Shown here piece after piece: positions 2,456 to 33,265 of a stretch of DNA of 64,000 bases. Source of the DNA: a virus. Its lineage: Duplodnaviria > Caudoviricetes. A model generated the notes under the pieces. It was given only the letters and a program-made list of their open reading frames with translations, did no database searches and had not been told where the DNA came from. Positions within the stretch are counted from its first letter, which is position 1, and each line of letters opens with the position of its first letter. The stretch lies in IMG/VR virus record IMGVR_UViG_3300032007_001727. One strand, 5' to 3'. Both the position numbers and the translations under genes were made by a program.

Positions 2456-3199
2456 TTATTGTTTAACCTTGGTCCAATTATATAAACCTAAGTAATAAGC
2501 ACTTGTTCCCATCCAAACGTCATATCCACTGCTACCTTGTGGAACATAAAGAGTACCACCCGTCTTAACATTTTGGAAAGTATTACTTTGTATTGTTGGT
2601 GCTGTTGTGGCAAGCGAGGTTATACTTGTTAAACCGTAACAACGTTCGAAAGCACTACCACCAATGCTTGTGATACCACTGCCAATTGTACAACTTGTCA
2701 TGGCAGAACAACCACTGAAAGTGTTTTGACCAATACTTGTAACACCATTTGGTATTGTTATGCTTGATAAACTGAAACAACCATAGAAAGCAGCGGCACC
2801 AATGCTTGTAACACTGTCCGGAATTGTTATGCTTGATAAACTACGACATTGATAGAAAACCAATTCACCAATTCTTGTAACACTGTCCGGAATTGTTATG
2901 CTTGTTAAACCGGAACAACTATTGAAAGCCCAATCACCAATGGTTGTACAAAGTCCACCAATTTCAGCACTAACACAAGTTGCGCTGTATGGTTTTGTCA
3001 TTGCGCTTGTTAATGTTCCACTTCCTTCAAGTTTAACAACTTCACCATTGCTAAGGGTTAATTTACATAATGGGGGGGGGGTAGGATTGTAGTGGACATC
3101 ACCCTCAGCAACACAAAGTGATACGTTTGGCTTGGGATAATCCGTGGCAACGTATGCTGTATAATCGGCATGCGTTGCAAATTCTTTAACGTACTTCAT
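2456..3199 (-). CDS. BspA-type (LRR_5) leucine-rich-repeat protein, copy 1; G10 tract in frame
   Basis: Repeats of C..LTSITIPDSVTSIG..AF. N- and C-termini shared with three paralogues. Confidence 0.9.
   Translation of the reverse strand: MKYVKEFATHADYTAYVATDYPKPNVSLCVAEGDVHYNPTPPPLCKLTLSNGEVVKLEGSGTLTSAMTKPYSATCVSAEIGGLCTTIGDWAFNSCSGLTSITIPDSVTRIGELVFYQCRSLSSITIPDSVTSIGAAAFYGCFSLSSITIPNGVTSIGQNTFSGCSAMTSCTIGSGITSIGGSAFERCYGLTSITSLATTAPTIQSNTFQNVKTGGTLYVPQGSSGYDVWMGTSAYYLGLYNWTKVKQ
3072..3081. repeat. G10 homopolymer in BspA copy 1 (Pro linker)
   Basis: taa-t-G10-tagg. Confidence 0.9.
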
Positions 3200-3240
3200 A
3201 ATTATTATTTTTAAAGATTTTAATATAAGTTATTTTCTTT

Positions 3241-3281
3241 ATAAATATCTTGTTATTTTCATATTTTTTATATATCTTTGC
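3241..3281. promoter_or_regulatory. Back-to-back promoters: GATATTTAT (minus strand, BspA) overlapping CTTG-N20-TATCTTTG (plus strand)
   Basis: Same arrangement at about 15518-15567 and 22215-22256. TAnnTTTG is the Bacteroidota primary-sigma -7 element. Confidence 0.7.
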
Positions 3282-3321
3282 AATAGTTAAAAAAATGTTA
3301 AATTTAAATTATAATAAAATT

Positions 3322-3690
3322 ATGCTTTTAAGTGATTTGAAAAATAAAATCGGGGAAACCGTTGATGGTTATGAGATAAAAGGTCTTAAATTGGTCCCGG
3401 CTAGGTTCCAAATTTTAAGAAAACTATCATCAACCGATGATTTGGTTCTAATGAAAGTTGATAAGTTAGGTAGAAACTTATTCAGTTTTTATTTAATGTC
3501 AAGGTACCAAGAAGATACGGATAGAATTCCTAACCATAATTTTTACGGTTATGGTAACGGCACAACCTTTTTCGACGCCGAAGTTGCATATAATGCATTG
3601 TTGGCAAAAATTCACGAAAAAAAGAGAGAACTTGGTAAGGCTGAATTTGAATTACAAAAAACAATGCACAATGTCTTGTCCGTTCTGTGA
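3322..3690 (+). CDS. Hypothetical protein
   Basis: ORF after a promoter and A-rich leader. Confidence 0.6.
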   Translation: MLLSDLKNKIGETVDGYEIKGLKLVPARFQILRKLSSTDDLVLMKVDKLGRNLFSFYLMSRYQEDTDRIPNHNFYGYGNGTTFFDAEVAYNALLAKIHEKKRELGKAEFELQKTMHNVLSVL

Positions 3691-4042
3691 TATTAAGAAG
3701 GATTCAATTATATTTGATGGTGATAATTGGGTTGGCGTGAAGGATGGATTTCCGGTTTCAGAAGGACATACTCTGTTAATTCCAAAAAGGCACTGCGAAA
3801 CATTCTTTGATTTAAACAACGATGAGTTAACTGAATTGGTTTCGTATTGCATTCCAACAATAAAGGAGATATTGGATGGGGAATATCATCCGGACGGTTA
3901 TAATATCGGCGCAAATTGTGGAACCGCTAGCGGACAAACCGTAATGCACTGCCATATTCACATCATACCAAGATATAATGGTGACGTGGATGACCCTAGA
4001 GGTGGAGTGAGAGGTGTAATTCCAAAAAAACAAAAATATTAA
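3671..4042 (+). CDS. HIT-family nucleotide hydrolase
   Basis: CPFC, FPVSEGHTLLIPKRH, GQTVMHCHIHIIPRY histidine triad. Confidence 0.92.
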   Translation: MSCPFCDIKKDSIIFDGDNWVGVKDGFPVSEGHTLLIPKRHCETFFDLNNDELTELVSYCIPTIKEILDGEYHPDGYNIGANCGTASGQTVMHCHIHIIPRYNGDVDDPRGGVRGVIPKKQKY

Positions 4043-4140
4043 GGTGAATGACAATTTTTAACATACAAAGTCTTGCGGAATTCAAAAATTTTATATATCT
4101 TTGCAACGTAAATAAAAACAACGTTATACACTAAGTAATA

Positions 4141-4352
4141 GACACGTTCGGAGGCTGTCGAGGAGTTTCAAGTTTCTTCTCTTTTTTCACAGTTGCGTAA
4201 ACTTGAGGTACGGGCCGAACCAAAGAAGCCTTGGCTGGGTTGTCGGATTTCGAGCCATGCGGGTAAATTTCAATAAACCGTCCGTCCATACCGCGTTAAG
4301 GTTGCTGTTTTTTTCCATTAGGGGGTTGTACAGCGCTAGCACAAACAACCCA
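4141..4352 (+). ncRNA. Putative structured non-coding RNA
   Basis: Directly downstream of a TATCTTTG promoter and GC-richer than its flanks. Nested pairings GTTCGG/CCGAAC, TCAAGTTT/AAACTTGA, GGGTTGT/ACAACCC. Confidence 0.4.
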
Positions 4353-4354
4353 AA

Positions 4355-4427: not shown

Positions 4428-4452
4428 AAAGATAGTTTAATAAGCATTCACA

Positions 4453-12205: not shown

Positions 12206-14263
12206 ATGAACTATAGCAAGAAACAAATGCAGCCGTTGATTGATAAATACTCAATCAATCCGGAAACCAACAAACTTTTCATTAAGGTATGCGAAATGTT
12301 TGAAGACCAACCCAACTATCAAGTTTGGGCCGTTAAGATGGTTTTTTCATCAGCAATTCAGTTTGACGGGCTTGAGGAGATTCATCAGTGGATTACCGAA
12401 AACAATGAGTTGATTCCAAGTTTATCAAAGAAGAATATTATCTCATACACAACGAAGAGTGATATTGAAAAACTCTTTGATGAAATGAGTGGGTTGAAAA
12501 AGGTGGCATTTATAAAGAAAATGATTTCCAATTTCAACACAACCCAAAGAAAAATGTTAATATCTGCCTTGTTTGGGTCAAACAATGTGCCACTTAACCT
12601 CAAAAGCAGAGTTATCGATGAGTGGTATAAAATATTCAAGATTTTCGACAAAAAGCCTTGGGCAATCAAACACAAGTTCTATAGCACTTGTTCGGCACTA
12701 AAATCTTCCACATCATTATGTCAAGCAATCAAGGATTGTCTAGCAGAATCCTATACATGGGAGAACGGTAAGGAAGATTTGCTAAGTTTCATATCATACA
12801 ATACCCCGGACTGTGACGTTGTGTTCGATGAGGGGAATTGTGTGGTGGTTCGGGTTCCTTCATACAATTCTAGCCATAAACTATGCGGAAGCGGCCGTAC
12901 CGGTTGGTGTATTTGCCGTGAAGAGGGCTACTTCAGAAACTACGTTACATCAAAGCCGAACCGTGCGCAGTATTTCCTATTCGATTTCAATAGGAAAGAG
13001 TCCGATGCATTTGCTCACATTGGATTTACCATTGAGTTCGGAAGAGGTATTGTTGAGGCTCAGACGTGCCACAACTATGGTATGATGCAACCGTTCGAAC
13101 AAGGTAACGAAAAACTCAGCATCCATGATGTGTTGAAGAATTTCGGAATATCCATGTCCACATTCATGAAACTACCAAAAGACCTTGGTTTTGGTTGGGA
13201 CATTGATTCAATCTGCAAATTAATCAGTGAAAACGGCGGAAAAGTAGTCTACAATGCCAACGGAAGGATTGTTGCAGAGGCCAACGGTCAGTTATTCACG
13301 GCAATCACCAAGAAAACATTCATTGGAAAGAATGATTTTCAGTCAAATGGCATGAATAAGATTTTCCTATGCATTGATTTGAACCTACAAACCACTAACG
13401 GGAATTGCATAATTGCAATCTCCTACGCAAAGGATAAGTACGGGTCCTATTCTCTAGGCAAAATAAACAATGCCTTGGGCGAGAAACTAGACGAAAAGAG
13501 TCTCTCTGAACTTGGCATAAATACTGAAAACTTGTTTGATTTGCCGAAATTAGACCCGTCCGTGCTGCTGCATAAGTATATTGATGAAAACAATGAAGAG
13601 GCTGCAATAAAGTTGATTAACAGTGACTCCAAGGTGAATGTAAACTACATCTTCAATAATAGGGCACCGGTATTTGCCGCCATAAACAATTGTATGACAA
13701 AGTTGTATGACACCATTGTCAACCACAAGGACTTTGACAGCAACTACAAGGACGGATATGGTGAAACCTTGTTGGAAATGCTTCTTTATCTCTATGGCAA
13801 TCCGGAAGTGGCTATCACGAAGGATGACAAGGATATGCTGAAAACAATGATTAACTCAACCTTGGCAAGTGAAACCTTTGATTTCAATGCTAGAGACTAC
13901 AACAATGATACAGTTATCAATTCTGCTTGCACCTATAAGGAAGAGGAATGGGTAGTGGGTGTTATTGCCTCATTAAGGGAGGTTGACGTGAACGTGGTAG
14001 ATGACTTTGGGTCCTCGCCCCTTACCACTTGCATAACCAACAAGAACCTTGGTGCCTTGAAGATATTGGGAATGAGACCGGATTTGAAGGTAACTGACGA
14101 AGACAGAGAACTTGCCAAGTCATTTAAGATAGACTTGGACAAATACATAAAGCCGTCTGAAAGTATCTTCGGAATGTATCCAAGACCAAAGAGAATGGAG
14201 CATAATCTTGAAGAGAAGCCAGTATCTGATGAGATTTTGGCTGAAGTCTTTGCCGAAGCATAA
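12206..14263 (+). CDS. WCI-motif domain protein with C-terminal ankyrin-like repeats
   Basis: NYKDGYGETLL, NARDYNNDTVI, DVNVVDDFGSSPL. Confidence 0.75.
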   Translation: MNYSKKQMQPLIDKYSINPETNKLFIKVCEMFEDQPNYQVWAVKMVFSSAIQFDGLEEIHQWITENNELIPSLSKKNIISYTTKSDIEKLFDEMSGLKKVAFIKKMISNFNTTQRKMLISALFGSNNVPLNLKSRVIDEWYKIFKIFDKKPWAIKHKFYSTCSALKSSTSLCQAIKDCLAESYTWENGKEDLLSFISYNTPDCDVVFDEGNCVVVRVPSYNSSHKLCGSGRTGWCICREEGYFRNYVTSKPNRAQYFLFDFNRKESDAFAHIGFTIEFGRGIVEAQTCHNYGMMQPFEQGNEKLSIHDVLKNFGISMSTFMKLPKDLGFGWDIDSICKLISENGGKVVYNANGRIVAEANGQLFTAITKKTFIGKNDFQSNGMNKIFLCIDLNLQTTNGNCIIAISYAKDKYGSYSLGKINNALGEKLDEKSLSELGINTENLFDLPKLDPSVLLHKYIDENNEEAAIKLINSDSKVNVNYIFNNRAPVFAAINNCMTKLYDTIVNHKDFDSNYKDGYGETLLEMLLYLYGNPEVAITKDDKDMLKTMINSTLASETFDFNARDYNNDTVINSACTYKEEEWVVGVIASLREVDVNVVDDFGSSPLTTCITNKNLGALKILGMRPDLKVTDEDRELAKSFKIDLDKYIKPSESIFGMYPRPKRMEHNLEEKPVSDEILAEVFAEA

Positions 14264-14314: not shown

Positions 14315-15479
14315 TTATTGTTCGACCTTTGTCCAACCACTCAATCGGTTCATCCAAGTATCATAGCCACTGCTACCTTGTGGGACATAGAGAGTACCAC
14401 CGGTCTTAATATACATGAAAGTATTATTTGCTATTGTTGGTGCTGTTGTGGCAAATGAGGTTATTGCTGATAAACTAGTACAATTAACGAAACCTTGACT
14501 ATCAATACTTGTAACACCACTTGGAATGTTTATACTTGTCATAGCAGTACAACCATTGAAAGCCTGTACACCAATGCTTGTAACACTGTTCGGAATTGTT
14601 ACGCTTGTTAAACTACGACAACCGGAGAAGGTTTGATTATCAATACTTGTAATACCATTTGGAATTGTTATGCTTGTTAAACTATAACAACTAGTGAAAG
14701 CGCTATTACCAATGCTTGTAACACTGTCCGGAATTGTTATACTTGATAAGCCGTGGCATCTAAAGAAAGCATTATTACCAATACTTGTAATATCATTTGG
14801 AATAAATGCCGCATCAGAACCCTTTATTAAGGTATTTGTAGCAGTTTCAATAATTGCATTACAGTTGTTTCTTGAGTCATAAACTGTGTTGGCAGCATCA
14901 ACTTCTACGTCTGATAACCCAATATAATCTATGTCTCGAATGACTGCATTTATATTTGTAATCGCACTCCCAATATATAAAAATTTAATTTCAACACAAC
15001 CATCAAAAGCACTTCCGCTTATACTTGAAACACTGTTTGGAATAATAAGAGTCTGAAGGAAAGGTCTAGCACGTTCAATTCTCATTACCTCATCTTCAGA
15101 TTCAACACAAGAACCTCCCCAACCATTATATAAGTCACCAATGCTTGTGCATAATTCGCCGCAAACAATTGAGGTAATACAAGCACCGCTTAGTTCACCC
15201 GTTTCCGGGTCATAGTCCAAAGTTAAATAAGATTTAATCATGCATTGTGTCAGTTCTCCGCTTCCTTGTAACTCAACTTCCGTTGGTTCGCCAACCGGAA
15301 CATCATTCAAATATTCTTGTACGGTTAACTTAACAAAGAATGGTGGGGGGGGGTGGAACATCCGGATTGTAGTGTACGGCACTGTCAGCCATAACATAAC
15401 TTACGTTTGGCTTTGGATAGTCCGTGGCAACATAGGCTGTATAATCGGCAACAGTTGCGAACTTTTGTAAATACTTCAT
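14315..15479 (-). pseudogene. BspA-type LRR protein, copy 2, frameshifted at a G9 tract (candidate phase-OFF allele)
   Basis: ATG at 15479 gives MKYLQKFATVADYTAYVATDYPKPNVS..., then TAA at 15330-15332 after the G9 tract (15345-15353). G8 would give a continuous 387-aa protein. Confidence 0.85.
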
Positions 15480-15608
15480 AATTATTATTTAAAAATTTAA
15501 ATATGGTTATTTTAACAATAAATATCACAAATATCTTGTTATTTTCATATTTTTTATATATCTTTGCAACAGTTAAAAAAAATGTTAAATTTCAAACCTA
15601 ATTAATTC

Positions 15609-17571: not shown

Positions 17572-17715
17572 ACTACCCATCAACTAAAGATTTGTGGAAT
17601 TTTTTGGTGTTTTTTATTAAAAAACATTAAAATAATGTGGGATATCTTGTGTATCTCACATTTTTTTTATACTTTTGCAAAAAATGATGGTACAAACACA
17701 GAAAGAATAATCACT

Positions 17716-20831: not shown

Positions 20832-20882
20832 GACAAAAAAAGAAAGGTGGTCAGATATTGACCACCTTTTTATTGTTAAGTA

Positions 20883-22169
20883 TTATTGTTCAACCTTTGT
20901 CCAATTATTTAACTGGGTAATCCAAACATCATAGCCACTGCTACCAATTGGAACGTAGAGGGTGCCTCCTGTCCTAACAATTTGGAAAGTAGAATTAGTT
21001 ATTGTTGGTGCAGTTGTTGCAAGTGATGTTATTGCTGATAAATTAGAACAATTAGTGAAAGCATTATTACCAATGCTTGTAACACTGTCCGGAATTGTTA
21101 TGCTTGGTAAACTTGTACAATAATAGAAAGCACTATTACCAATGCTTGTAACGGTGTTTGGAATTGTTATGCTTCTTAAACTTCTACAATCAATGAAAGC
21201 ACTATCACCAATGCTTGTAACACCACTGCCAATGGTACAAGTTGTCATAGCAGAACAACCATAGAAAGCACTACCACCAATACTTGTAACACTGTCCGGA
21301 ATTGTTATGTCTGATAAACTTTCACAATAAAAGAAAGTACTATCACCAATGGTCGTAACACTGTCCGGAATTGTTATGCTTGTTAAACTAGAACAACTAT
21401 GGAAAGCCCTATTACCAATACTTGTAACACCGCTGCCAAGGGTACAAGTTGTCATAGCAGAACAATTTTGGAAAGCATTACTACCAATGCTTGTAACACT
21501 GTCCGGAATTGTTATGCTTGTTAAACTATAACAATTAGTGAAAGCACTGTCACCAATGCTTGTAACACCGCTGCCAATGGTACAAGTTGTCATAGCAGAA
21601 CAATTTTGGAAGGTATAATCAGCAATGCTTGTAACACCACTGCCAATGGTGCAAGTTGTCATAGCAGAACAACCACTGAAAGCATAATTACCAATGCTTG
21701 TAACACTGTCCGGAATTGTTATGCTTGGTAAACTAGAACAATAAACGAAGGCATTATTACCAATGCTTGTGACAGTGTTTGGAATTGTTATGCTTGTTAA
21801 ACTTCTACAACCATTGAAAGCATACTCACCAATGCTTGTAACACCACTGCCAATGGTACAAGTTGTCATAGCAGAACAACCATAGAAAGCCCAATTACCA
21901 ATGCTTGTACAGAGTTCACCGATTTCAGCGCTGACACAAGTTGTACTGTAACCGCTTATCATTGCTCTTGTAAGTTCCCCACTGCCTTCAATTTCGACAA
22001 CTTCTCCGGTGCGAAGGGTTAACTTACAGAAAAATGGTGGTGGGGGGGGGGTAGGATTGTAATGGACATCACCCTCAGCAACACAAAGTGACACGTTTGG
22101 TTTTGGGTAGTCCGTGGCAACATACGCCGTATAGTCAGCATGTGTTGCAAATTCTTTAACGTACTTCAT
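20883..22169 (-). CDS. BspA-type LRR protein, copy 3 (longest); G10 tract in frame
   Basis: About 13 LRR_5 repeats; first ~43 aa identical to copy 1; G10 at 22042-22051. Confidence 0.92.
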   Translation of the reverse strand: MKYVKEFATHADYTAYVATDYPKPNVSLCVAEGDVHYNPTPPPPPFFCKLTLRTGEVVEIEGSGELTRAMISGYSTTCVSAEIGELCTSIGNWAFYGCSAMTTCTIGSGVTSIGEYAFNGCRSLTSITIPNTVTSIGNNAFVYCSSLPSITIPDSVTSIGNYAFSGCSAMTTCTIGSGVTSIADYTFQNCSAMTTCTIGSGVTSIGDSAFTNCYSLTSITIPDSVTSIGSNAFQNCSAMTTCTLGSGVTSIGNRAFHSCSSLTSITIPDSVTTIGDSTFFYCESLSDITIPDSVTSIGGSAFYGCSAMTTCTIGSGVTSIGDSAFIDCRSLRSITIPNTVTSIGNSAFYYCTSLPSITIPDSVTSIGNNAFTNCSNLSAITSLATTAPTITNSTFQIVRTGGTLYVPIGSSGYDVWITQLNNWTKVEQ

Positions 22170-22272
22170 AATATTATTTTTTAAAGTTTTAAATTAAGTT
22201 ATTTATTTCTTGTTATAAATATCTTGTTATTTTCATATTTTTTATATATCTTTGCAAAAAACCATACAAATT

Positions 22273-22953
22273 ATGAAAATTTGCGCATTCTCAGATATGC
22301 ACGGTCAGTTGGATTTTACAGTGGAGCCGTGTGACATCGCTCTGATATGTGGCGATGTCGTGCCGTTGTACATACAAATGTATAATAAGGAAAGTGAACA
22401 ATGGTTTAAGGAAACGTTCATTCCTTGGTGCCTAAATCTTCCATGTGAAAAGGTTGTCTTCATTGGTGGAAACCATGATTTTATTTTGGAAAGGCAACCG
22501 AATAAAATAAGAAAATTATTGGAAGGACAAGATAAGGTCGTATATTTGGACTGTGAGGCGTTTGAATATAACGGCAAAATAATATTCGGTACACCGGTAT
22601 GCAAGCCATTCGGTTCATGGGCCTTTATGGAACCATATGAAAAACAAGACTCTAGATATGAGTCTTGCATAAATGATATTGGACACGTTGATATTATAAT
22701 GTCCCACGATGCACCATACGGAATAAGTGACATACTCTTGCAAAAAGATTGTCCTTGGGCTGACGGTACACACATTGGAAATCATTCCCTAAGAAAACTA
22801 TTAGACAATGTGAAACCAGAAATACATGTGTTTGGTCATTTGCATTCATGCAACCATGACGTGGTAAAGCATAATGACACTTTGGTTTCATGCGTTTCAA
22901 TGCTAAATGAAAACTATATGATGGTGTACAAACCGCTTTATATTGAGATTTAA
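22273..22953 (+). CDS. Calcineurin-like metallophosphoesterase
   Basis: SDMHG, CGD, GNHD, SHD, GHLH. Confidence 0.9.
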   Translation: MKICAFSDMHGQLDFTVEPCDIALICGDVVPLYIQMYNKESEQWFKETFIPWCLNLPCEKVVFIGGNHDFILERQPNKIRKLLEGQDKVVYLDCEAFEYNGKIIFGTPVCKPFGSWAFMEPYEKQDSRYESCINDIGHVDIIMSHDAPYGISDILLQKDCPWADGTHIGNHSLRKLLDNVKPEIHVFGHLHSCNHDVVKHNDTLVSCVSMLNENYMMVYKPLYIEI

Positions 22954-23008
22954 CAAACTTTAACCTAAATAATTTTGAATTTTAAACGAAAAATAATATA
23001 TTTGCATT

Positions 23009-23707
23009 ATGGATAGTGAAAATATTGTTAAGATAACGGTAAAATGTTTTTTGAAGGTGATTAAGTACAAAGGATTTTATCCAATATTCAGATGTTTTGT
23101 CGGGCATGAAGCACAAAACTGTGGGTTTAATTATTCACGTCGCTGTTCATTCCCGATGTTAGAGTGTCTAGAGCCATATGTCACCATGGCAACTATGTAT
23201 GCGCATAAAAATATGTTCTATTATGCACATAGTGCTGATGAAATTGGGGTTATAATAATTAAGACATTGCCGAAGTATGCAATGTTCTTTAATGATGAAG
23301 CCACCAATGAGGGCATAGAAAAAACCGTTTCCTATATTGTGAACACTCTCTTGATGAACACGATTCAACTCTCAACAACTAACCACAAGTCAATGGAACA
23401 AATCGGGAGGGAGGCTTATAACCTTTCTTGTAAACTAATAATAGGTGACTCCTTTGTTGAAGAGACGGAAGAAGATACTGCAAAATCCATAAAAGAGTTT
23501 AACCAACTATTGAAGAATTCTTTAGGTGATATTTTACACATAAGTGATTCGCATGATTTTTCCAAATTTTATGCGGATATTCTCCGGGATAGGGTGCAAA
23601 TGTTTCAACAAGGGCAAAATTTTGCTACATACTATCCTCTTGATGCAAATGGATTTGCCGCAAGTGCATACCAATGGACTACTACTAGTGGTGATGATTT
23701 ATATTAA
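23009..23707 (+). CDS. Hypothetical protein
   Basis: 232-aa ORF after a promoter. Confidence 0.65.
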   Translation: MDSENIVKITVKCFLKVIKYKGFYPIFRCFVGHEAQNCGFNYSRRCSFPMLECLEPYVTMATMYAHKNMFYYAHSADEIGVIIIKTLPKYAMFFNDEATNEGIEKTVSYIVNTLLMNTIQLSTTNHKSMEQIGREAYNLSCKLIIGDSFVEETEEDTAKSIKEFNQLLKNSLGDILHISDSHDFSKFYADILRDRVQMFQQGQNFATYYPLDANGFAASAYQWTTTSGDDLY

Positions 23708-25646: not shown

Positions 25647-25991
25647 ATGGGAGAACAAGTAATAATATTCATTTCATCACTTGCCGGATATTTTTCAATT
25701 GCCATAGTTGTGTTTGTTTTCCTTAAGACACGCAACCCAATTGTAGAATTCGCAAATTATCAAAAAAATGAATTCGGGATTGTTGACACTTCCCTAACGG
25801 ATTATTTGGGCAATATCTATGTAAATAAAAATAATACCTATATGAACATAGTCAAGTGTCTGAGCCTCTTGTGGATATTGACAATACCATTCTACCTTGG
25901 CGGACTGTTTGGCATATTCTTCTATAGACATATCGTCACCCGTGGGAACAAAGAGAAATTAATATCATCTTATTTTACTGAGAAATTTTAA
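25647..25991 (+). CDS. Hypothetical membrane protein
   Basis: Two hydrophobic segments. Confidence 0.6.
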   Translation: MGEQVIIFISSLAGYFSIAIVVFVFLKTRNPIVEFANYQKNEFGIVDTSLTDYLGNIYVNKNNTYMNIVKCLSLLWILTIPFYLGGLFGIFFYRHIVTRGNKEKLISSYFTEKF

Positions 25992-25999
25992 AAATAGTT

Positions 26000-26581
26000 A
26001 TGGAAAAAAGGACATTTCAAAAGGGGGATTTTATTAAATACCGTGCATATAACGATACCACGGATAAAATCACCTTTGGTATCTTTGAGGGCAACGACTT
26101 GGCACCACAGTACCAATATACAAAAAAACTATCCTTGGTATTGTATTACGATTCAAAGAAATACAGTCAAGACAAGGCAGGACAGTGGGGCTACCGTCCT
26201 TCTCTTGAAATTGCCAAGGACGGTAATGAATGTGAAAAGACGATTGACACAACAATAGAGGATTCATGGTGGTCCATATGCACGGAAGAGGAAAAGGAGT
26301 TTGCCTTGCAAATCCTAAGCGCAAACGGATACATATGGGACGAGGCAACAATGACCCTCTTCGACAAAGATACAAATGAAGTTGTCCATAAGATAGTTGT
26401 TCCAAAGAACGAATATAACGGCAATATCATAAAGCCGATTTCAGATTGGTTCATGGATAAACTGAGAAAGTTTGTTATCTCAAAGAACGCCTTTGGGTCC
26501 TATGCCGGAACCCCCAACTACGGTGGCGGATACCATCCGCAATACGGATATTACAATGAGTGGGATTCCGCTTATGATTAA
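26000..26581 (+). CDS. Hypothetical protein
   Basis: 193-aa ORF followed by a hairpin at about 26608-26655. Confidence 0.7.
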   Translation: MEKRTFQKGDFIKYRAYNDTTDKITFGIFEGNDLAPQYQYTKKLSLVLYYDSKKYSQDKAGQWGYRPSLEIAKDGNECEKTIDTTIEDSWWSICTEEEKEFALQILSANGYIWDEATMTLFDKDTNEVVHKIVVPKNEYNGNIIKPISDWFMDKLRKFVISKNAFGSYAGTPNYGGGYHPQYGYYNEWDSAYD

Positions 26582-26896
26582 AAAGAAAGTAAATGTTGTT
26601 AGTTTTTGCCGTTGTTGTTAACTTCAGATTGCCTCTTGTTAACATACAACGGCTTTTTGTTTAAAAAAGGTTAAGAAATTTGTTTTTCCCAATTTTTTTA
26701 TATACTTTTGCACAAAAAGCAAAGAAAATGGCATCAAAATCAGTATTAATCAAGGCAATAGAGATATTGGAAAAAGCCAATAACACGCTTAACCGCACTC
26801 TGCTTTCAACCGATAGCAGCAGTGAAAGGGAACGCATTTCCAAGGAAATCACCAAAAACGAATCAATGATTTTAGATTATAAATTTAGGATTAACC

Positions 26897-27733
26897 ATGA
26901 ATAATAAATTGCGCGAAGAGAGAATTGCACTCTTCAATGAGACGGTGGATACCGCCGAAAGAGGTTCATACCTCATCAACGGGAACGAAGTTGTCATCAA
27001 CGAACTTGATGACTACATGACCAACAAGACAGTCTTCTACAAGAAGAAGGTTGATATGGACCATAGCACACTCCCGAGATTCGAAACGGTCATAAAGGTT
27101 ATGAACAATGATTCCCTATACGAGGGAAAGAATCTGTTGGACGATGGCCTAAAGGTTGCAGTGCTCAATATGGCAAGTTACGTTATGCCCGGCGGAGGCG
27201 TAAGGAAGGGTTCACACGCCCAAGAGGAAGAAATATTCCTCAGAACAAACCTATACAAATCCCTCTACGCATTCCATGACATAGCGGGTGAATACAACGT
27301 GGAGAGAAACCCAAAATACTCATACCCGTTGGACTTCAGATACGGCGGAATCTACACCCCGAAGGTGACAGTCTTCCGTGGAGGCCAAGACACCAACTAT
27401 TCGTTCTTGGAAGAACCCTACACCCTTGATATTATCTCTGTCTCTGCCGTAAGGAACAAGGAGGGCATGGAGACCTCAAAGAAAACCAACGACATCACTA
27501 GGACAAAGGTAAAGCAAATGCTTGACATTGCCTTGGAAAACGGCAACGATGCCTTGGTATTGGGTGCCTTCGGCTGTGGTGCATACCACAACGACCCCAC
27601 CACGGTTTCCAAGATATTTGCGGATGTATTGGTGTCTGAGGAATATTCAAACCTCTTCAAGAAGATACACTTCGCAATCTTGGACGGTCCAAAGACCAAC
27701 AATTACAACATCTTCAAGACAATATTCGGATAA
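26897..27733 (+). CDS. TIGR02452/DUF2263 bacterial PARG-like macrodomain
   Basis: VLNMAS...PGGG...G..AQEE catalytic loop, LVLGAFGCGAY.N. Confidence 0.88.
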   Translation: MNNKLREERIALFNETVDTAERGSYLINGNEVVINELDDYMTNKTVFYKKKVDMDHSTLPRFETVIKVMNNDSLYEGKNLLDDGLKVAVLNMASYVMPGGGVRKGSHAQEEEIFLRTNLYKSLYAFHDIAGEYNVERNPKYSYPLDFRYGGIYTPKVTVFRGGQDTNYSFLEEPYTLDIISVSAVRNKEGMETSKKTNDITRTKVKQMLDIALENGNDALVLGAFGCGAYHNDPTTVSKIFADVLVSEEYSNLFKKIHFAILDGPKTNNYNIFKTIFG

Positions 27734-27752
27734 ATAATAATAGAATAACGAT

Positions 27753-28268
27753 ATGGATACAAACACAAAGGAATATTCATCTTCAATATTGAAGAAGATA
27801 GACGATAGCATGTCATCGCTGATGGCACTTCTTGCACACGGAGAGAACAACACAGAGGCAAGGAGCCGTCTCGACACGTTGAAGTTAATCAAGTCTGAAT
27901 TGGTCAGAGAAAACGGCAAGTTGCACTCAAACGTGCAATACAAGATGTTGCCCCAAGAGTAACTTAAGTTGCTCTCGACCATGAAGAAATCCCATGAGGA
28001 AACCATAGAGGGCTACATGAAGGTGAACAACACCCAATCCGCAGAATCTGAGAGGGCGGAACTCTCCATCATCATGGAATACCTCCCCAAGATGCCTTCC
28101 AAGGAGGAAACGGAATCATTCATAAGGGAGATAATCTCCCTACACCTTGCAGAGAACGGCACAATATCCATAAAGGACATGGGAAGGATTCTCCCCAAGG
28201 TCAAGGAGAAGTACCCCTTGGTTGACGGAAAACTAGTCAAGGACATTATCTTGTCTCACCAACAGTAG
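27753..28268 (+). pseudogene. GatB/YqeY-domain protein interrupted by one in-frame TAA (27960-27962)
   Basis: The two ORFs share a frame (..PQE*LKLL..). YqeY motifs LKLIKSEL, AELSIIMEYLPK, KDMGRI, VDGKLV. Confidence 0.75.
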
Positions 28269-28276
28269 CGCAAAAA

Positions 28277-29951
28277 ATGAATAGGCCCAAATATGTATTC
28301 AAGTCACTTGGAGGGAACGATTCGGACAACTCCATAGATGATTATATTTTTTTCTGCGAGCCTCACATTTCCGGCCGCAACAACGAAGGCTATATAACAA
28401 GACACTGTGCGTCAATAAGAAAAATAAACGGCAATGGAATGGCCTCGTTAGCAAACTTAGGTAACGAGAAACTGTTCAGAAAGGATAAGGTTGAAATATT
28501 CAACTTCAAGAGATATATCCGGACAAACATGTCTCTCATGGCCACCGGAAGGATATATAACAAGAACAAATTCCGTCACGAGTTAAACAAGGTGATTAAA
28601 TGAATGGACGCAAATATATACTCAAGTCACTTGGGGGACATGATTCGGACAACTCCATAGATGATTATATCTTTTTCTGTGAGCCTCGCATTTCCGGCTG
28701 CAACAACGAGGGTTATGTGACAAAATACTTTGTGTCGGTAACCAAAATGAATGCCAAGGGAATTTCTTATGTGAGAAATGAAGGCGACGAGATACTGTTC
28801 AAGAGTGACTTGGTGGAAAACTTTACCTTCAAGAGATATATCCGGACAAACATGTCCCTTATGGCTACCGGAAAAATATATAATAAGAACAGATACCGTC
28901 ATGAATTAAATAATAAAACATAATCAGATGAAGAGGCCCAAATACATGCTCAAGTTAATTGTTGCCGAAAAAAGTTTAAACGGTTCAATTTATGACTGTA
29001 TTTTTTTCTGTGACCCCAAAGTCTCGGGTTATAAGCACGAAGGACACATGACAAGGTACTTTGCACAAATAAAGAACTTGTCCTTCTTTGGAGGAGTGGC
29101 AATAAATGATAAGGAAGGACTCTTAAATGAAGAGTTTGTGGAGAATTTTACCTTTAAGAAATACATGCAAATAAATATGGTGCTCATGTCCTCCGGAAAG
29201 ATTTATAATAAGAACATGTACCGTTACCAATTAAGCCGTGGGCGGTCAAAATAAAAAAAAATAAAATGAAAAGACCCAAATATATGCTAAAGTCACTCAG
29301 TGGCGCAGATAATGACATTTCAAAAACTGATTGTATTTTCTTCTGTGACCCCAAAGTCTCGGGTTTTAACAACGAGGGTTATGTGACAAAAGCATTCGTG
29401 ACGATAACCAAAACGAACATAGGCGGTAAATCAATAGCCAATTATAATTTCTTCGGTGATGAAAAACTATACAAACAAGATTTTGTTGAGAGTTTTACCT
29501 TCAAGAAATACATGAGAATAAACATGACCCTCATGTTCGCCGGAAAGATATATAACAAGAACAGATACCGTTATGAATTAAATAAATAAGACGTAACTAG
29601 TATAATGAACTGTTAATCATGCTTCAATTAATTGAAATATCTACACGTGGACGTATATACGAGGGAGCAAAATTTGTTGCCTTGTGCAGCAATGAAACAT
29701 TCAAGATTCTTAAAGAGAAACAAGAAGGCAAACACCTTGGAAAAAAGGTTTATGCCCCATATTTCATATGGGTTAACAAACAATCTCCGGACACATTTGG
29801 AGACATAACAACCCACGAGGAACTAGGCCCATATGACGTTCCTAGTAAAATCACGTTAAAGACTTACATGTGCCTCAATGAAATTCTAATGGAAAAGAAC
29901 AAGGTTTTCAACAAAAATAAACATAAGAGAGAATGTCAAACAATAGAGTAG
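28277..29951 (+). CDS. Five tandem ~108-aa paralogues (28277-28603, 28600-28923, 28928-29254, 29266-29589, diverged 29619-29951)
   Basis: Shared RPKY.LKSL, IFFC(E/D)P..SG, F.FK.Y...NM.LM..GKIYNKN..R.EL. Confidence 0.85.
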
Positions 29952-30125
29952 CAAAGACCTATGAAGAAGGCATAGAAGAGGCCATTTCATATGTCAAGAG
30001 AATGATTGTCAAGAGCGACGCGCTCTTCACCACACCAAGGGAAGCCTTGGAGAATGTCAAGGTTTTCCTAGAGAACCGTTTCAAGCGTTTTATATAGAAA
30101 AAGAAAAAAAAGAAAATAAGAACAA

Positions 30126-30659
30126 ATGAAAGAGGATATAACCATCTTTAAGTTTTTCAACTCCATAAGTGATTTCACAAAGGAGTTTGTCACAAGCCTT
30201 GAGTGTTCTCCCATAAAGGTCAAGGGTGACTTGCACGTCTTGGGCATAAGAAGACACTACAAGAACGGCATACCTTCCATAGACTTCCACCTAAAGCACT
30301 TGAAGGAGAGAAGTGACGGAAAGATTTCAAACATACCGTGTGAGGACAACGGAGAGATATGGATAGACAGCACGCTCTTCCAAGAGTCCACCTCAAGGGA
30401 CGTAGTCTCCAAGATTGTATCTTGGTATGAGTCCCTAAGTGAGTTCGACTTGGCCAAAATGGCATATAAGCCCTCTCACGAGCCTTCAAATTGCGCAAAC
30501 AAGGAAGAGGTCACCATATATGAAAACAACCACGCAGCATGCGAGGGAATGCGGAAAAAACGCCTTGCCTCAACATCCTTCAGAGCGGAGATAAGGCACT
30601 TTGAAAAAAACGGCAAACAAGAAAAGAAATACACGGACGAGGAACTTGCCGAACTGTAA
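30126..30659 (+). CDS. Hypothetical protein
   Basis: ORF with A-rich leader. Confidence 0.65.
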   Translation: MKEDITIFKFFNSISDFTKEFVTSLECSPIKVKGDLHVLGIRRHYKNGIPSIDFHLKHLKERSDGKISNIPCEDNGEIWIDSTLFQESTSRDVVSKIVSWYESLSEFDLAKMAYKPSHEPSNCANKEEVTIYENNHAACEGMRKKRLASTSFRAEIRHFEKNGKQEKKYTDEELAEL

Positions 30660-30687
30660 CACGCACACATAATGACAATAACCCATA

Positions 30688-31191
30688 ATGATGAACAAAA
30701 CCCTTCACTTGGACGAGATATTGGAAAGGCTCAGACTTGAGAGTTGTTCCATGTTGCGTTTCTCACCGAATTTGGATGAGTTCTTGGAATTCTTGAAACA
30801 CGATTTCTACATCTTGGACTTGCACAACTTTCCGAAAAATGCTTGCGTGAGTTTCATATACGTGCCCATGCCAAGGTCAACCGTTGAAATTTCCTTCTCT
30901 AGCACCGGAAGCAACATCTTGACGGTCAATACCAATGATGATGTAATATGTTCGTTCTCAACACCTCTCATGAATTTCTCAAAGGCAAGGTACGATAAGA
31001 GGGTCTTCCGTTTCATAGTACCCTTCTTCGGCTCCTTCCGCGTAGTATATTTCTCGGACGATGACAAGGCACTCGTTGACATCTTGAGGACATACTCCAT
31101 CTTGGAGAGGCTAGGGCCGAAGACCCCCGACAATATTTTCCACACCTTCGGAACAATTTACAGAGGAATCTGCAACAAGATAAAAGAATGA
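30688..31191 (+). CDS. Hypothetical protein
   Basis: ORF in operon. Confidence 0.6.
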   Translation: MMNKTLHLDEILERLRLESCSMLRFSPNLDEFLEFLKHDFYILDLHNFPKNACVSFIYVPMPRSTVEISFSSTGSNILTVNTNDDVICSFSTPLMNFSKARYDKRVFRFIVPFFGSFRVVYFSDDDKALVDILRTYSILERLGPKTPDNIFHTFGTIYRGICNKIKE

Positions 31192-31952
31192 TGGAAAGAC
31201 TAACATACCAAACCCCCTTGGGTTCAAGACTCTTGAGCAACGTAAGAGAACACGACACCATTGCGGGACAGATAAAAGAACAAGACCAAGTGTACGAACT
31301 CTTGCGTTCCGTCTTCACGGACAAGGACACCGCAGAGTTGGTGAAGAAGAGGGTGGATGCAAACACCAACACGGCTTCTTTGTCCCTACGCTTTTACGGC
31401 CAAGACCAAGTAATGAGGAGGATACCGAGAACGGTTCACCTCATGTTGGAGAACTATCTCTTCATCCTCAAGGTCACGTACATGAACTACGGAAAAGAGA
31501 CGTACCAAGCAAGCATAAACCTTTTTACGCTCAAGCCACACGACGTTCTCACCGTCAACTACCACGTCTGTCCGCTTACGCTTGACACGGCCCCATACGC
31601 TTATCCCACCAAGTTGGCCGCACTAGATTTTTACGAACGCACAAGCAAGTGGACGGTCAACGTGGACAAGATGGTTCGGTGCGGCGACGCTTCAAACTCT
31701 CTCAAGATGTTGAGATATTCCGGCCCCGCCACTTCCGTTTCCTTCCTCTCCACGGACAAGCGGTTCATAGTTAGGAAGGCAAAGGAACTGCTTGCACTCT
31801 CCTCTCTCACGTCACCGGTCATCTTCAATCTTTTAAAGTTAAAGTTGGACAACTTGAAGGAACTTGAACCAAAATATTATTATTTAAGGGAGACCTATGG
31901 CACTAAAAATGCTGCAAGCCAAGACCTTCCCACGTTTCTGTGCAGCACTTGA
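31188..31952 (+). CDS. Hypothetical protein
   Basis: ORF overlapping the previous stop (ATGA). Confidence 0.6.
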   Translation: MMERLTYQTPLGSRLLSNVREHDTIAGQIKEQDQVYELLRSVFTDKDTAELVKKRVDANTNTASLSLRFYGQDQVMRRIPRTVHLMLENYLFILKVTYMNYGKETYQASINLFTLKPHDVLTVNYHVCPLTLDTAPYAYPTKLAALDFYERTSKWTVNVDKMVRCGDASNSLKMLRYSGPATSVSFLSTDKRFIVRKAKELLALSSLTSPVIFNLLKLKLDNLKELEPKYYYLRETYGTKNAASQDLPTFLCST

Positions 31953-32074
31953 CCAAAAAGTTTATCAAATTTAAAACAAGGGCAATAATGTTAGGATAAA
32001 AAATGAGCGAACCTTGAATGGGTTCGCTCTTATGTTTATAGATGGTGTGAGATTAGAGTTGGTCTTGTGGCTGC

Positions 32075-32470
32075 TTAATCATCAGCATAATCACCAAGAC
32101 CTAAGTTTTGAGCCATTCTTTTACCTTTTTGGTGGTATCCTTTGAAATATGGACTTCGCTTCATTATTTGTTCTGCACCGCTTAATCCATCAGAGTTGGT
32201 TAATTCAATTCCGTTTTCTTGGTCTCTCCTTCCGATATTCCATTCTCGTTCCGCACTTCTTGCTTTCTCTAGATTGTTATGAATATCTCTTTCATCTTGG
32301 TCACGCCACCCTCTTGCGCTTCTTACTCGGTGGACGGCCCCCCAATCTTCTGCGTTATTACCGTGAAGACTTTCTCCACCATATTCTACTTCATTGAGTA
32401 TTCTATTCACTGACTCTTTCACGATTCTATGAAGGTCACTCTCCGTTAATCTTATAAGTTTCTTTTTCAT
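32075..32470 (-). CDS. Putative late/virion-associated protein with KKLIRLTESDLHRIVKESV leader
   Basis: GATATTTAT at 32506-32514 (minus strand). Confidence 0.75.
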   Translation of the reverse strand: MKKKLIRLTESDLHRIVKESVNRILNEVEYGGESLHGNNAEDWGAVHRVRSARGWRDQDERDIHNNLEKARSAEREWNIGRRDQENGIELTNSDGLSGAEQIMKRSPYFKGYHQKGKRMAQNLGLGDYADD

Positions 32471-32578
32471 ATTGTTTTATATGTGTTTATTTTGTTATTT
32501 TTATAATAAATATCACAATAAACAGAAAATGCAGCCATTTCTGACTGCATTTTAATATTTGTTGTGCCAACTGCTATG

Positions 32579-33265
32579 TTACTGCTCAACCTTGGTCCAA
32601 TTATATAATCCCAAGTAATAGTTTGCATTTTGCATCCAAGTATTATAGCCACTGCTACCTTGTGGAACGTATAGAGTACCATTAGATGCTATTTCATTAA
32701 ATGTGTCATCAATTAAGGTAGGTGCCGTCATGGCAAGTGACGTAATGGACGTAAGACTACTACACTCAAGGAAACACTGACTGCCAACGCTTGTAACACC
32801 ACTTGGTATCGTTATGCTTGTTAAACCACTACATTCTCTAAATAAATCCTCACCAAGCCTTGTAACACCGCTTGGAATCGTTACGCTCGTTAAACTCGAA
32901 CATTGACTGAAAACAAAATCACCAATGCTTGTAACGGTGTCCGAAATCGTTATGCTTGATAACTCATAGCACCCGCTGAAAACACTATCGCCAATGCTTG
33001 TGCACAGCGTACCGATTTCAACGCTTGTAATCTCATATTTCATGTCCACCACATCATATATCATGCTATCGGTCAGTTCTCCGCTTCCCTCAATCTCCAT
33101 GGGGCCACTATAACTTGATGTCAGTTTACAGAAGAAGGGTGACTCCACGTACGGAGTATAGTGCATTTCGTTTTCTTGTACGCAAAGTGACACGTTAGGC
33201 AGTATCAATCCGCTTTGTGCAGCCTCATATGCGCTGTGATTCTCAAATTCTTTAACGTATTTCAT
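32579..33265 (-). CDS. BspA-type LRR protein, copy 4 (no poly-G tract)
   Basis: MKYVKEF start, LRR_5 repeats, TLYVPQGSSGY..WTKVEQ end. Confidence 0.9.
   Translation of the reverse strand: MKYVKEFENHSAYEAAQSGLILPNVSLCVQENEMHYTPYVESPFFCKLTSSYSGPMEIEGSGELTDSMIYDVVDMKYEITSVEIGTLCTSIGDSVFSGCYELSSITISDTVTSIGDFVFSQCSSLTSVTIPSGVTRLGEDLFRECSGLTSITIPSGVTSVGSQCFLECSSLTSITSLAMTAPTLIDDTFNEIASNGTLYVPQGSSGYNTWMQNANYYLGLYNWTKVEQ

What the first reader, a model, noticed from the sequence alone, without database searches (positions are those of the whole stretch)
2456..33265. Dispersed BspA-LRR family with poly-G slippage switches: candidate phage phase-variation system
Seen: four minus-strand paralogues share a ~40-aa N-terminal domain and a C-terminal cap but differ in LRR number and variable residues. 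Three have a pure G tract at the same place, the Pro linker right after the N-terminal domain: G10 at 3072-3081 (in frame), G10 at 22042-22051 (in frame) and G9 at 15345-15353 (out of frame, stop after 49 aa; G8 or G11 restores a full protein). Copy 4 has no tract. G runs this long were not noticed elsewhere in this AT-rich window. Known: 5-prime poly-G/C tracts are the hallmark of bacterial contingency loci, and BspA/LRR_5 repeats are protein-binding modules. Inference: the phage population switches interchangeable binding proteins ON and OFF, with the conserved N-terminus possibly serving as a virion-docking domain.
Basis: partly seen in the sequence, partly recalled or inferred. Interest (0 to 1): 0.9.

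Follow-up and report, generated by a model that had tools for sequence, protein, structure and literature searches.

The report
Poly-G switches in phage LRR genes
A giant rumen phage carries a dozen or so copies of a leucine-rich-repeat binding-protein gene, and almost every copy has a slippage-prone run of 8-13 G/C bases at the same joint, so each is probably switched on or off at random, a bet-hedging trick so far shown by experiment only in Campylobacter and T-even phages.

Summary
The window is part of a jumbo phage of about 366 kb from the rumen, with Bacteroidota-type promoters.

In the 136-kb record that holds the window, all six G runs of 8 or more sit at one place. That place is just after a 40-aa N-terminal module of BspA-type LRR (PF13306) genes.
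- Two runs are in frame, three are out of frame, and one is cut by the contig end.
- Every out-of-frame copy keeps an open downstream frame, of 146 to 647 codons after the tract.
- CCC is the rarest proline codon here, so a need for a proline linker does not explain pure C runs.
- Relatives at 34-70% identity have no such tract.
- Two other phage lineages have their own G tracts in or just after an N-terminal module of LRR_5 or similar genes.

The best reading is a set of slipped-strand contingency loci that switch a repertoire of binding proteins, probably borne on the virion.

Three things are not shown:
- length variation within a population;
- virion association;
- any variation at the one orthologous locus I could compare, which has the same out-of-frame C9 in three assemblies.

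The closest known case is the phase-variable receptor-binding proteins of Campylobacter Fletchervirus phages. This scan found the same idea before in another rumen jumbo phage (e1-3451508). I rate it a new variant of a known kind.

The parts
2456..3199 (-). LRR copy 1, 247 aa, in frame (ON)
   Evidence: Translation. PF13306 E=3e-37. AlphaFold2 pLDDT 92.8, LRR solenoid with a small N-terminal unit.
3072..3081 (-). Poly-C tract (G10 on the + strand) of copy 1. It encodes the Pro linker after the N-module. Only C10 (or +/-3) is in frame.
2422..2451 (-). Hairpin terminator directly after the stop codon of copy 1
15330..15479 (-). Copy 2, 5' part: N-module plus tract, ending in a stop after 49 aa (OFF product)
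   Evidence: The same 49-aa peptide is on record in the protein collection.
15345..15353 (-). Poly-C tract (G9 on the + strand) of copy 2, out of frame. C8 or C11 gives 387 or 388 aa.
   Evidence: The orthologous loci L049 (93% identity) and L048 (86%) also have C9.
14315..15344 (-). Copy 2, LRR body in the other frame, open to the family C-terminal cap
20883..22169 (-). LRR copy 3, 428 aa, in frame (ON)
   Evidence: PF13306 E=4e-97.
22042..22051 (-). Poly-C tract (G10 on the + strand) of copy 3
20843..20869 (-). Hairpin terminator directly after the stop codon of copy 3
32579..33265 (-). LRR copy 4, 228 aa, with the N-module but no tract (junction HYTPYVESPFFCKLT)
3200..3283 (-). Conserved 5' region of copy 1, shared with the other copies. 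Its distal 16 nt (3268-3283) read on the + strand are a Bacteroidota-type -7 box (TAnnTTTG) that belongs to the divergent neighbour gene.
15480..15569 (-). Conserved 5' region of copy 2, with the divergent promoter box at 15554-15569
22170..22257 (-). Conserved 5' region of copy 3, with the divergent promoter box at 22242-22257

Best explanation
Each gene of this family is a self-contained unit. It has its own 5' region and start codon, about 40 codons for a small N-terminal module, a pure poly-C tract of 8-13 bases read as 2-4 prolines, an LRR_5 solenoid with 4 to about 25 repeats, a conserved C-terminal cap and a terminator.

Inferred mechanism: when the phage genome is copied, slipped-strand mispairing adds or removes one C. 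The gene then flips between a full-length LRR protein (ON) and a 45-52-aa peptide made of the N-module alone (OFF). With ten or more independent switches, every burst yields phages that carry different subsets of LRR binding proteins. This is bet-hedging against variable host surfaces.

The proteins are most likely virion-borne adhesins or receptor-binding accessories, and the shared N-module is the part that attaches them.

Shown here: the anatomy, the statistics, the mixed phases and the intact OFF copies. Inferred: actual switching, its rate, virion location and the docking role.
For: 1. Placement. All six G runs of 8 or more in the 135.8-kb record lie 118-126 nt after the start codon of family genes. 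Shuffles of the window give 0.66 matching 8-mers.

2. Phases. Of the five copies that can be judged, C10 and C10 are ON and C12, C8 and C9 are OFF. Each OFF copy is restored by a change of one base, and each has an open downstream frame of 146, 647 or about 340 codons with LRR homology.

3. Codon usage. CCC makes up only 14% of proline codons in this genome. The only other run of three or more prolines uses mixed codons. A relative has a Pro-rich linker written in mixed codons (L054). Other relatives have no linker at all (HYNPFFCKLTL).

4. Distribution. 28 IMG/VR relatives at 34-70% identity, and 14 more distant genes with the N-module, have no tract at the junction.

5. Independent origins. 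L037 has a G12 inside the N-module on the coding strand; it is OFF, and G10 or G13 would give 403 or 404 aa. The 353-kb phage G002 has a G10 (OFF) and a G11 (ON) after a different N-module.

6. Other rumen samples. Short contigs from four other assemblies carry family genes with C9 or C10 tracts.

7. A likely phase difference. P0010 (48 aa, another JGI contig) is exactly what the gene of P0007 (369 aa, ENA assembly) would give with one C fewer. This is inferred from protein sequence only.

8. Binding role. The fold is a BspA-type LRR like bacterial surface adhesins. Repeat positions x in xAFxxC are hypervariable at 3.1-3.3 bits on an otherwise fixed scaffold.

9. Virion link. In the same phage a 907-aa tail-fibre gene (Peptidase_S74, 42.7 bits; phrog_1980) is followed on the same strand by two LRR_5 genes, one of which has the family C-cap. 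In the full genome, P0006 lies next to a gp25 baseplate gene.

10. The N-module. It heads 2,610 protein clusters, always at residue 1. It is mostly fused to LRR_5, sometimes to lectin-like or Ig-like domains. It turned up only once among 185,579 bacterial species genomes.

11. Precedent. Poly-G tracts in the receptor-binding proteins of Fletchervirus phages create phenotypic diversity (Sorensen et al. 2021, as described in PMC11959909 and 10.1101/2025.10.21.683753).
Against: - No reads were available, so no within-population length variation is shown.
- At the only orthologous locus I could compare, the tract is C9 and out of frame in three independent assemblies (window, L049 at 93% identity, L048 at 86%). 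A freely drifting switch does not predict this.
- The window and its IMG/VR twin record have identical tract lengths.
- The tract-bearing copies in the window lie among metabolic and accessory genes, not in a structural module.
- No gp25 gene or other structural neighbour was found in the 136-kb fragment, apart from the tail-fibre operon.
- No virion data exist.
- One OFF copy (genome 25490-26066) lacks the family C-cap and may be decaying.
- The extra OFF alleles from other samples were found by searching with OFF peptides, so their phase is biased by how they were found.
Confidence: 0.55

Rival explanations
1. The switch works the same way, but the LRR proteins act inside the infected cell or are ejected into it. 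They would be host-takeover or anti-defence binders. On this reading the N-module is a packaging or targeting signal, like the capsid-targeting sequence of T4 internal proteins, not a tail-docking part. Phase variation would then avoid host defences that sense a given LRR protein.
For: - There is no signal peptide; the N-terminus is hydrophilic.
- The copies in the window sit among accessory genes: a HIT hydrolase, a PARG-like protein, an ankyrin-repeat protein and a sigma factor.
- Each copy is a moron-like single-gene unit with its own terminator.
- T2/T4 contingency loci are reported to help evade host defence (10.1101/2025.10.21.683753).
- A short conserved N-terminal tag on varied cargo is the T4 internal-protein pattern (my own knowledge).
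Against: - The partner domains of the N-module are of extracellular adhesin type: LRR_5, Lcl_C (lectin-like), Big_2 and MBG.
- LRR_5 genes lie in the tail-fibre operon.
- One family gene lies next to gp25.
Confidence: 0.2
2. The tracts mutate fast but are not an adaptation. A slippage-prone polymerase expanded proline codons in a tolerant linker, and the out-of-frame copies are young pseudogenes of a redundant family.
For: - The family is large and redundant.
- One OFF copy lacks the C-cap.
- The same OFF length is seen in three assemblies at one locus.
- Tracts in a linker tolerate in-frame length changes.
Against: - There are no stop codons in 146-647 codons downstream of the three OFF tracts here, nor in the OFF copies of L037, L038 and L048-L051.
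- Tracts arose independently at module junctions in three lineages.
- No long G/C run occurs anywhere else in coding sequence of the 136-kb record.
Confidence: 0.12
3. The tract is a recoding site. Its length is fixed, and full-length protein from 'out-of-frame' copies is made by transcriptional slippage or by ribosomal frameshifting on the C run. The tract would then set dosage instead of acting as a heritable switch.
For: - C9 is conserved at the copy-2 locus in three assemblies at 86-93% identity, with the body intact.
- All three OFF copies in the record are one base longer than an ON length.
- Runs of C read by tRNA-Pro are known to be shift-prone (my own knowledge).
Against: - Paralogues with the same architecture are in frame.
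- L050 and L038 are in the other OFF phase.
- No conserved RNA structure lies near the tract: the covariation term is +0.91.
Confidence: 0.08
4. The odd lengths are homopolymer errors of sequencing or assembly, and all copies are really in frame.
For: - Homopolymers of 8-13 bases are error-prone.
- One end of the record stops inside a G13.
Against: - The same C9 was recovered by three assemblies made with different assemblers and from different studies.
- OFF peptides are on record from both JGI and ENA assemblies.
- The tracts themselves, and where they sit, do not depend on exact length.
Confidence: 0.05

Closest known systems
Phase-variable receptor-binding proteins of Campylobacter Fletchervirus phages (Sorensen et al. 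2021, Cell Rep 35:109214; summarised in PMC11959909 and in 10.1101/2025.10.21.683753)
   Same: Both have poly-G/C tracts of about 7-11 bases or more inside phage genes for host-binding proteins. Both have several tracts per genome. In both, frameshifts create subpopulations.
   Different: - The phage here is a ~366-kb jumbo phage of a probable Bacteroidota host, and the protein family is different (LRR_5).
- Here one paralogous family of ten or more genes carries the tract at the same module junction, so the OFF product is always the N-module alone.
- There is no experimental evidence here.
- Sequence relatedness to the Fletchervirus proteins was not tested.
Contingency loci of coliphages T2/T4 (Gomez, Barrick and Waters 2025, bioRxiv 10.1101/2025.10.21.683753)
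   Same: Both involve homopolymer slippage during phage replication, giving reversible frameshifts and bet-hedging.
   Different: - The coliphage tracts are short (6 bases or more), scattered across all gene classes, and under-represented in tail fibres.
- Here the tracts are long (8-13 bases), exclusive to one gene family, and at a fixed position.
Neisseria Opa protein repertoire (my own knowledge, not tested here)
   Same: Both have about a dozen dispersed paralogous adhesin genes. Each has its own coding repeat near the 5' end and switches independently, which gives combinatorial expression.
   Different: - Opa is a bacterial outer-membrane beta-barrel family, not a phage LRR family.
- Opa uses a pentamer CTCTT repeat in the signal-peptide region, not a homopolymer at a domain junction.
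BspA-type LRR_5 surface proteins (Pfam PF13306; structures 4fs7, 6mlx TpLRR, 4cp6 PcpA)
   Same: The repeat family matches by sequence (E down to 4e-97) and by fold.
   Different: - The phage proteins have no signal peptide or anchor.
- They carry a phage-specific 40-aa N-module and a poly-C linker.
Branched multi-receptor-binding systems with conserved N-terminal anchors (CBA120 tailspikes, Klebsiella jumbo phage PhiK64-1; my own knowledge)
   Same: In both, many alternative binding proteins share a short conserved N-terminal part while their C-terminal parts differ.
   Different: - Those proteins are trimeric beta-helix spikes with proven docking.
- Here the body is an LRR solenoid and docking is only inferred.
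- No phase variation is known in those systems.
Diversity-generating retroelements of phages (Bordetella BPP-1 Mtd)
   Same: Both are phage-encoded ways to vary a host-binding protein.
   Different: - No reverse transcriptase was found in the 136-kb record.
- Variation here is ON/OFF switching by frameshift, plus differences between paralogues.

Membership tests
Simple-sequence contingency locus (slipped-strand phase variation) | A homopolymer or short repeat, long enough to be hypermutable, inside a reading frame or promoter | tested here: met
   Pure C runs of 8-13 bases lie inside six family genes.
Simple-sequence contingency locus (slipped-strand phase variation) | A change of one repeat unit toggles between a full-length and a truncated product | tested here: met
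   In-silico length series: only every third length gives 192-690 aa; the others give 44-52 aa.
Simple-sequence contingency locus (slipped-strand phase variation) | Tracts are over-represented against genome background and codon usage | tested here: met
   6 of 6 long G runs fall in the family. Shuffles give 0.66 matching 8-mers. CCC is 14% of proline codons.
Simple-sequence contingency locus (slipped-strand phase variation) | Tract length differs at the same locus between or within populations | tested here: inconclusive
   The copy-2 locus is C9 in three assemblies. P0007 (ON) and P0010 (OFF) look like one gene in two phases, but only at protein level. No reads were available.
Simple-sequence contingency locus (slipped-strand phase variation) | A measured high and reversible switching rate | not testable with these tools
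   This needs culture or deep accurate reads.
Fletchervirus-type phase-variable receptor-binding proteins | The tract lies in a gene whose product is a proven receptor-binding protein of the virion | not testable with these tools
   The evidence is indirect only: a tail-fibre operon with LRR_5 genes and a gp25 neighbour.
Fletchervirus-type phase-variable receptor-binding proteins | Sequence homology to the Fletchervirus proteins | not tested
   No Fletchervirus sequence was compared. The domain family here is LRR_5.
LRR_5 / BspA-type leucine-rich repeat (PF13306) | A match to the Pfam model above its gathering score | tested here: met
   97.9-321 bits against a cut-off of 27.7 for all four window copies.
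LRR_5 / BspA-type leucine-rich repeat (PF13306) | An LRR solenoid fold like solved BspA-type proteins | tested here: met
   Model pLDDT is 92.8. The best PDB matches are 4fs7, 6mlx, 4gt6 and 4cp6, with probability 1.00.
Phage tail fibre / receptor-binding protein | Encoded in the tail or baseplate module | tested here: inconclusive
   Two tract-less LRR_5 paralogues follow a Peptidase_S74 tail-fibre gene. The tract-bearing copies in the window are dispersed among non-structural genes.
Phage tail fibre / receptor-binding protein | Present in the virion and binding the host surface | not testable with these tools
   This needs proteomics or adsorption assays.
Diversity-generating retroelement target | A reverse transcriptase and a template repeat nearby | tested here: not met
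   There is no RVT_1 match in the 136-kb record. The record is only about 45% of the genome.

The most novel reading that the evidence does not exclude
The 40-aa N-module is a universal and so far undescribed docking tag of Bacteroidota jumbo phages, heading about 2,600 protein clusters. This phage has turned a dozen tagged LRR adhesins into an Opa-like stochastic repertoire. Because the tract sits exactly behind the tag, an OFF gene still makes a free tag peptide. That peptide would occupy or cap a docking site, so the switch would set which heads, and how many, decorate each virion, not merely presence or absence.
Probability: 0.2. Interest if true: 0.8.

Novelty: new variant of a known kind. 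Interest (0 to 1): 0.6.

Why it matters
If the tracts do switch, this would be the largest phase-variable gene repertoire seen in a virus. It would also be the first in a phage of the Bacteroidota-rich gut and rumen world, where hosts themselves vary their surfaces by phase variation. It would show that phages answer host surface switching with the same genetic device, used many times over in one genome.

The work also points to a widespread, unnamed N-terminal module that may be the handle by which such phages mount exchangeable binding heads. That is useful for predicting host range and for engineering phages.

The claim can be tested directly with reads that already exist in public archives.

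Tried and rejected
- An exact DNA pattern from the N-module found no other IMG/VR record.
- DNA of the 366-kb JGI and ENA contigs and of the 53.7-kb JGI contig could not be fetched. Tract lengths in the rest of the genome, and the P0007/P0010 comparison, therefore rest on protein sequences only.
- The metagenome scan gave only three loci. One of them, L037, was useful.
- A search for an ON counterpart of the OFF peptide P0168 found none.
- A hairpin inside the N-module coding region has no covariation support, so I dropped it.
- I first read the 15-mer TGCAAAGATATATAA upstream of the copies as their own promoter. Its occurrences and downstream frames show it is the reverse complement of a Bacteroidota -7 box that serves the divergent neighbour genes.
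- No reverse transcriptase and no gp25 is present in the 136-kb record.
- Pfam and PHROGs have no model for the N-module.
- No complex prediction was run, because no specific partner protein is claimed.

Full report
**What is there**

The window is bases 66,596-130,595 of a 135,815-bp IMG/VR virus record. The record is rated 45% complete and has 37.9% G+C. Exact protein look-ups place the same genes on contigs of 366,743 bp (JGI) and 366,366 bp (ENA), so the phage is a jumbo phage of about 366 kb.

Related short contigs come from cattle rumen studies (PRJEB21624 and the STEW18/STEW19 samples).

A 15-mer occurs at least 26 times in the record. Read on the + strand it contains TAnnTTTG, the -7 box typical of Bacteroidota promoters (my own knowledge of that consensus), and it precedes + strand genes. 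The only bacterial genome with the family's N-module is a MAG binned as Prevotella. The host is therefore probably a rumen Bacteroidota. This is an inference.

**Check of the observation**

The four genes are LRR_5 proteins that share a 40-aa N-terminal module and a C-terminal cap.
- Copies 1 and 3 (C10 on the coding strand) are in frame.
- Copy 2 (C9) stops after 49 aa, and C8 or C11 gives 387 or 388 aa.
- Copy 4 has no tract.

The whole record holds six G runs of 8 or more, and all six are at this same junction in family genes:

| Position in the record | Tract | State |
|---|---|---|
| 1-13 | G13 | gene cut by the contig end |
| 25929-25940 | G12 | OFF; 11 or 14 would be ON |
| 47823-47830 | G8 | OFF; 7 or 10 would give 689 or 690 aa |
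| 69667-69676 (window 3072-3081) | G10 | ON, 247 aa |
| 81940-81948 (window 15345-15353) | G9 | OFF; 8 or 11 would be ON |
| 88637-88646 (window 22042-22051) | G10 | ON, 428 aa |

The other end of the record stops in the 5' region of yet another copy. An eighth member, 769 aa, has a divergent N-module and no tract.

Further members are encoded outside the record, in the rest of the genome: P0005, P0006 and P0007 (ON) and P0011 (OFF). Earlier unchecked notes of this scan on other windows of the same genome list three more tracts.

**Why this is not chance and not only a proline linker**

Shuffles of the window give 0.66 matching G 8-mers. CCC is the rarest proline codon at 14%, and the only other run of three or more prolines in the long ORFs outside the family uses mixed codons.

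Relatives show what the junction looks like without a tract:
- HYNPFFCKLTL in P0008;
- NLPFFCKLTL in L066;
- a Pro-rich linker written in mixed codons in L054.

None of 28 IMG/VR relatives at 34-70% identity, and none of 14 more distant genes with the N-module, has a run at the junction.

**Why the out-of-frame copies look like switched-off genes and not wrecks**

After each OFF tract the other frame stays open, with recognisable LRR repeats: 146 and 647 codons after two of the tracts, and a 387-aa product for copy 2 once in frame. Two of the three run to the family C-cap. The 192-aa copy lacks the cap and may be decaying.

The same holds for OFF alleles in other assemblies: L048, L049, L050, L051, L037 and L038.

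**Convergence**

L037 is a 68-kb SPAdes contig from another study. It has an LRR_5 gene with the same N-module but a G12 on the coding strand inside the module. That copy is OFF, and G10 or G13 gives 403 or 404 aa.

The complete 353-kb phage G002 has three runs of 10 or more.
- Two lie right after a different N-terminal module. One precedes an LRR-type body with the same FCKLTL start (G11, ON). The other precedes a different body (G10, OFF).
- The third lies outside any long reading frame, upstream of another gene.
- Four other large relatives have none.

An earlier follow-up of this scan reached the same reading for that phage (e1-3451508). So long G/C tracts arose at least three times in or just behind N-terminal modules of such genes.

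**Variation between samples**

This is the weak point.

The locus orthologous to copy 2 is C9 and out of frame in the window, in L049 (93% identity over 1.3 kb, a MEGAHIT assembly) and in L048 (86% identity). That rules out a simple assembly error, but it shows no length change. It fits a modal OFF length; tract-length attractors near 9 are known from Campylobacter jejuni (my own knowledge). It also fits the recoding rival.

L050 keeps the left flank of copy 1 at 95% identity but carries a copy-2-like body, with C10 in the other OFF phase. This shows cassette turnover at a fixed site.

P0010, a 48-aa peptide on a 53.7-kb JGI contig, is letter for letter what P0007's gene (369 aa, ENA assembly) would yield with one C fewer. 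P0007 and the OFF peptide P0168 are on record only for the ENA assembly of the genome. The DNA could not be fetched, so this is only suggestive.

**What the proteins are**

AlphaFold2 gives a confident model, with pLDDT 92.8. It shows:
- a small strand-helix-strand-strand unit at residues 4-37;
- the proline linker;
- an LRR solenoid.

The best structural matches are BspA-type surface proteins of Bacteroides, TpLRR and PcpA, together with many LRR proteins of gut phages. Within the 23-residue repeat, the positions flanking the invariant F and C are hypervariable at 3.1-3.3 bits, while the scaffold is nearly fixed.

The N-module profile finds 2,610 protein clusters, always at the very N-terminus. 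Of 110 longer members, 63 carry LRR_5, 4 carry a lectin-like Lcl_C domain and 1 carries Big_2. Pfam and PHROGs have no model for it. Related jumbo phages carry one to six copies each.

There is no signal peptide.

In the same record, a 907-aa tail-fibre gene is followed on the same strand by a 352-aa gene and two LRR_5 genes. The tail-fibre gene matches Peptidase_S74 at 42.7 bits and phrog_1980. One of the two LRR_5 genes has the family C-cap. In the full genome, P0006 lies beside a gp25 baseplate gene. These points favour a virion-borne binding role but do not prove it.

The tract-bearing copies in the window lie among accessory genes: an IS1595 transposase, a HIT hydrolase, a metallophosphoesterase, an ankyrin protein and a PARG-like protein. 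Each copy is a single-gene unit with its own terminator.

**Mechanism and rivals**

The best reading (0.55) is a set of independent slipped-strand switches on a repertoire of binding proteins, probably mounted on the virion through the N-module.

| Rival | Confidence |
|---|---|
| Same switch, but on intracellular or ejected effectors | 0.20 |
| Non-adaptive tracts with young pseudogenes | 0.12 |
| Fixed tracts read through by transcriptional or ribosomal slippage | 0.08 |
| Homopolymer errors of sequencing or assembly | 0.05 |

**Comparison and novelty**

Phase variation through poly-G tracts in phage receptor-binding genes is published for Campylobacter Fletchervirus phages, and homopolymer contingency loci are reported for T2/T4.

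Four things are new here:
- the host group and the protein family;
- the size of the paralogous repertoire;
- the fixed position of the tract behind a shared N-module, so that OFF leaves the module alone;
- its repeated origin in rumen jumbo phages.

I rate this a new variant of a known kind, with interest 0.6. It is untested by experiment but can be tested directly with existing reads.

Noticed in passing
window 2456-3199, 20883-22169, 32579-33265 (residues 1-40 of each protein); loci L021-L035: The 40-aa N-terminal module (consensus MKYLKKF..t..eY......lPNVS.c...nevHYNP) is a large unnamed family. It has 2,610 clusters at E<=0.001 among 1.84 billion representatives, always at residue 1, and has no Pfam or PHROG model. 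It turned up only once among 185,579 bacterial species genomes, in a Prevotella MAG contig.
   Followed up: partly
G000 26212-34033 (outside the window; L083:6212-14033): Tail-fibre operon: a 907-aa protein with a Peptidase_S74 chaperone domain, then a 352-aa protein, a 752-aa LRR_5 protein and a 542-aa LRR_5 protein with the family C-cap. An OFF family copy lies divergent just upstream.
   Followed up: partly
whole record, e.g. window 3268-3283, 15554-15569, 22242-22257: The motif TTATATATCTTTGCA (as read on the + strand) occurs at least 26 times. It contains the Bacteroidota -7 box TAnnTTTG and precedes + strand genes, so it is probably the main promoter type of this phage.
   Followed up: partly
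window 57215 and 60908: The window differs from the IMG/VR record G000 at exactly two bases in 64,000. At 57215 the window has A where G000 has C, which turns a C6 into a C8 in a non-coding C-rich stretch.
   Followed up: no
window 57190-57640: This is a non-coding region just after a sigma-70-like gene (56407-57090; Sigma70_r2, 54 bits). It has a C-rich 15-nt repeat (57216-57248) and about three copies of a 49-nt A/T-rich repeat (57295-57458). It may be an origin or a regulatory region.
   Followed up: no
window 1111-2106 (-): An IS1595-family transposase (DDE_Tnp_IS1595, 152 bits) lies directly downstream of LRR copy 1 on the same strand.
   Followed up: no
window 12206-14263 (+): A 685-aa protein with C-terminal ankyrin repeats (weak matches, some below the Pfam cut-offs) lies next to LRR copy 2. 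It is a second repeat-type binding protein in the neighbourhood.
   Followed up: no
L023:583-699 and L024:3001-3114: Two unrelated IMG/VR contigs have an in-frame TAA at the same N-module codon where relatives have Leu (QN*ILPNVS). In L023 an intact LRR body of about 400 aa follows; L024 ends 42 codons after the stop.
   Followed up: no
L037:2555-2566: An independent G12 tract lies inside the N-module, on the coding strand, of an LRR_5 gene on a 68-kb contig from another study. It is out of frame, and G10 or G13 would give 403 or 404 aa.
   Followed up: yes
L050 versus window 3084-3891 and 14503-15611: A rumen contig keeps the flank of copy 1 at 95% identity but carries a copy-2-like LRR body (79%). 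LRR cassettes are therefore exchanged at a fixed site, with the break near the N-module or the tract.
   Followed up: partly
G000 2648-4027 (-), 22555-23700 (+); L052:9214-10578: Several large HNH or homing endonuclease genes are scattered through this phage and a relative.
   Followed up: no
window 26897-27733 (+), 3551-4042 (+), 17635-19107 (+): Accessory genes of note: a microbial-type PARG (poly-ADP-ribose glycohydrolase-like) protein, a HIT-family hydrolase and a tRNA nucleotidyltransferase.
   Followed up: no
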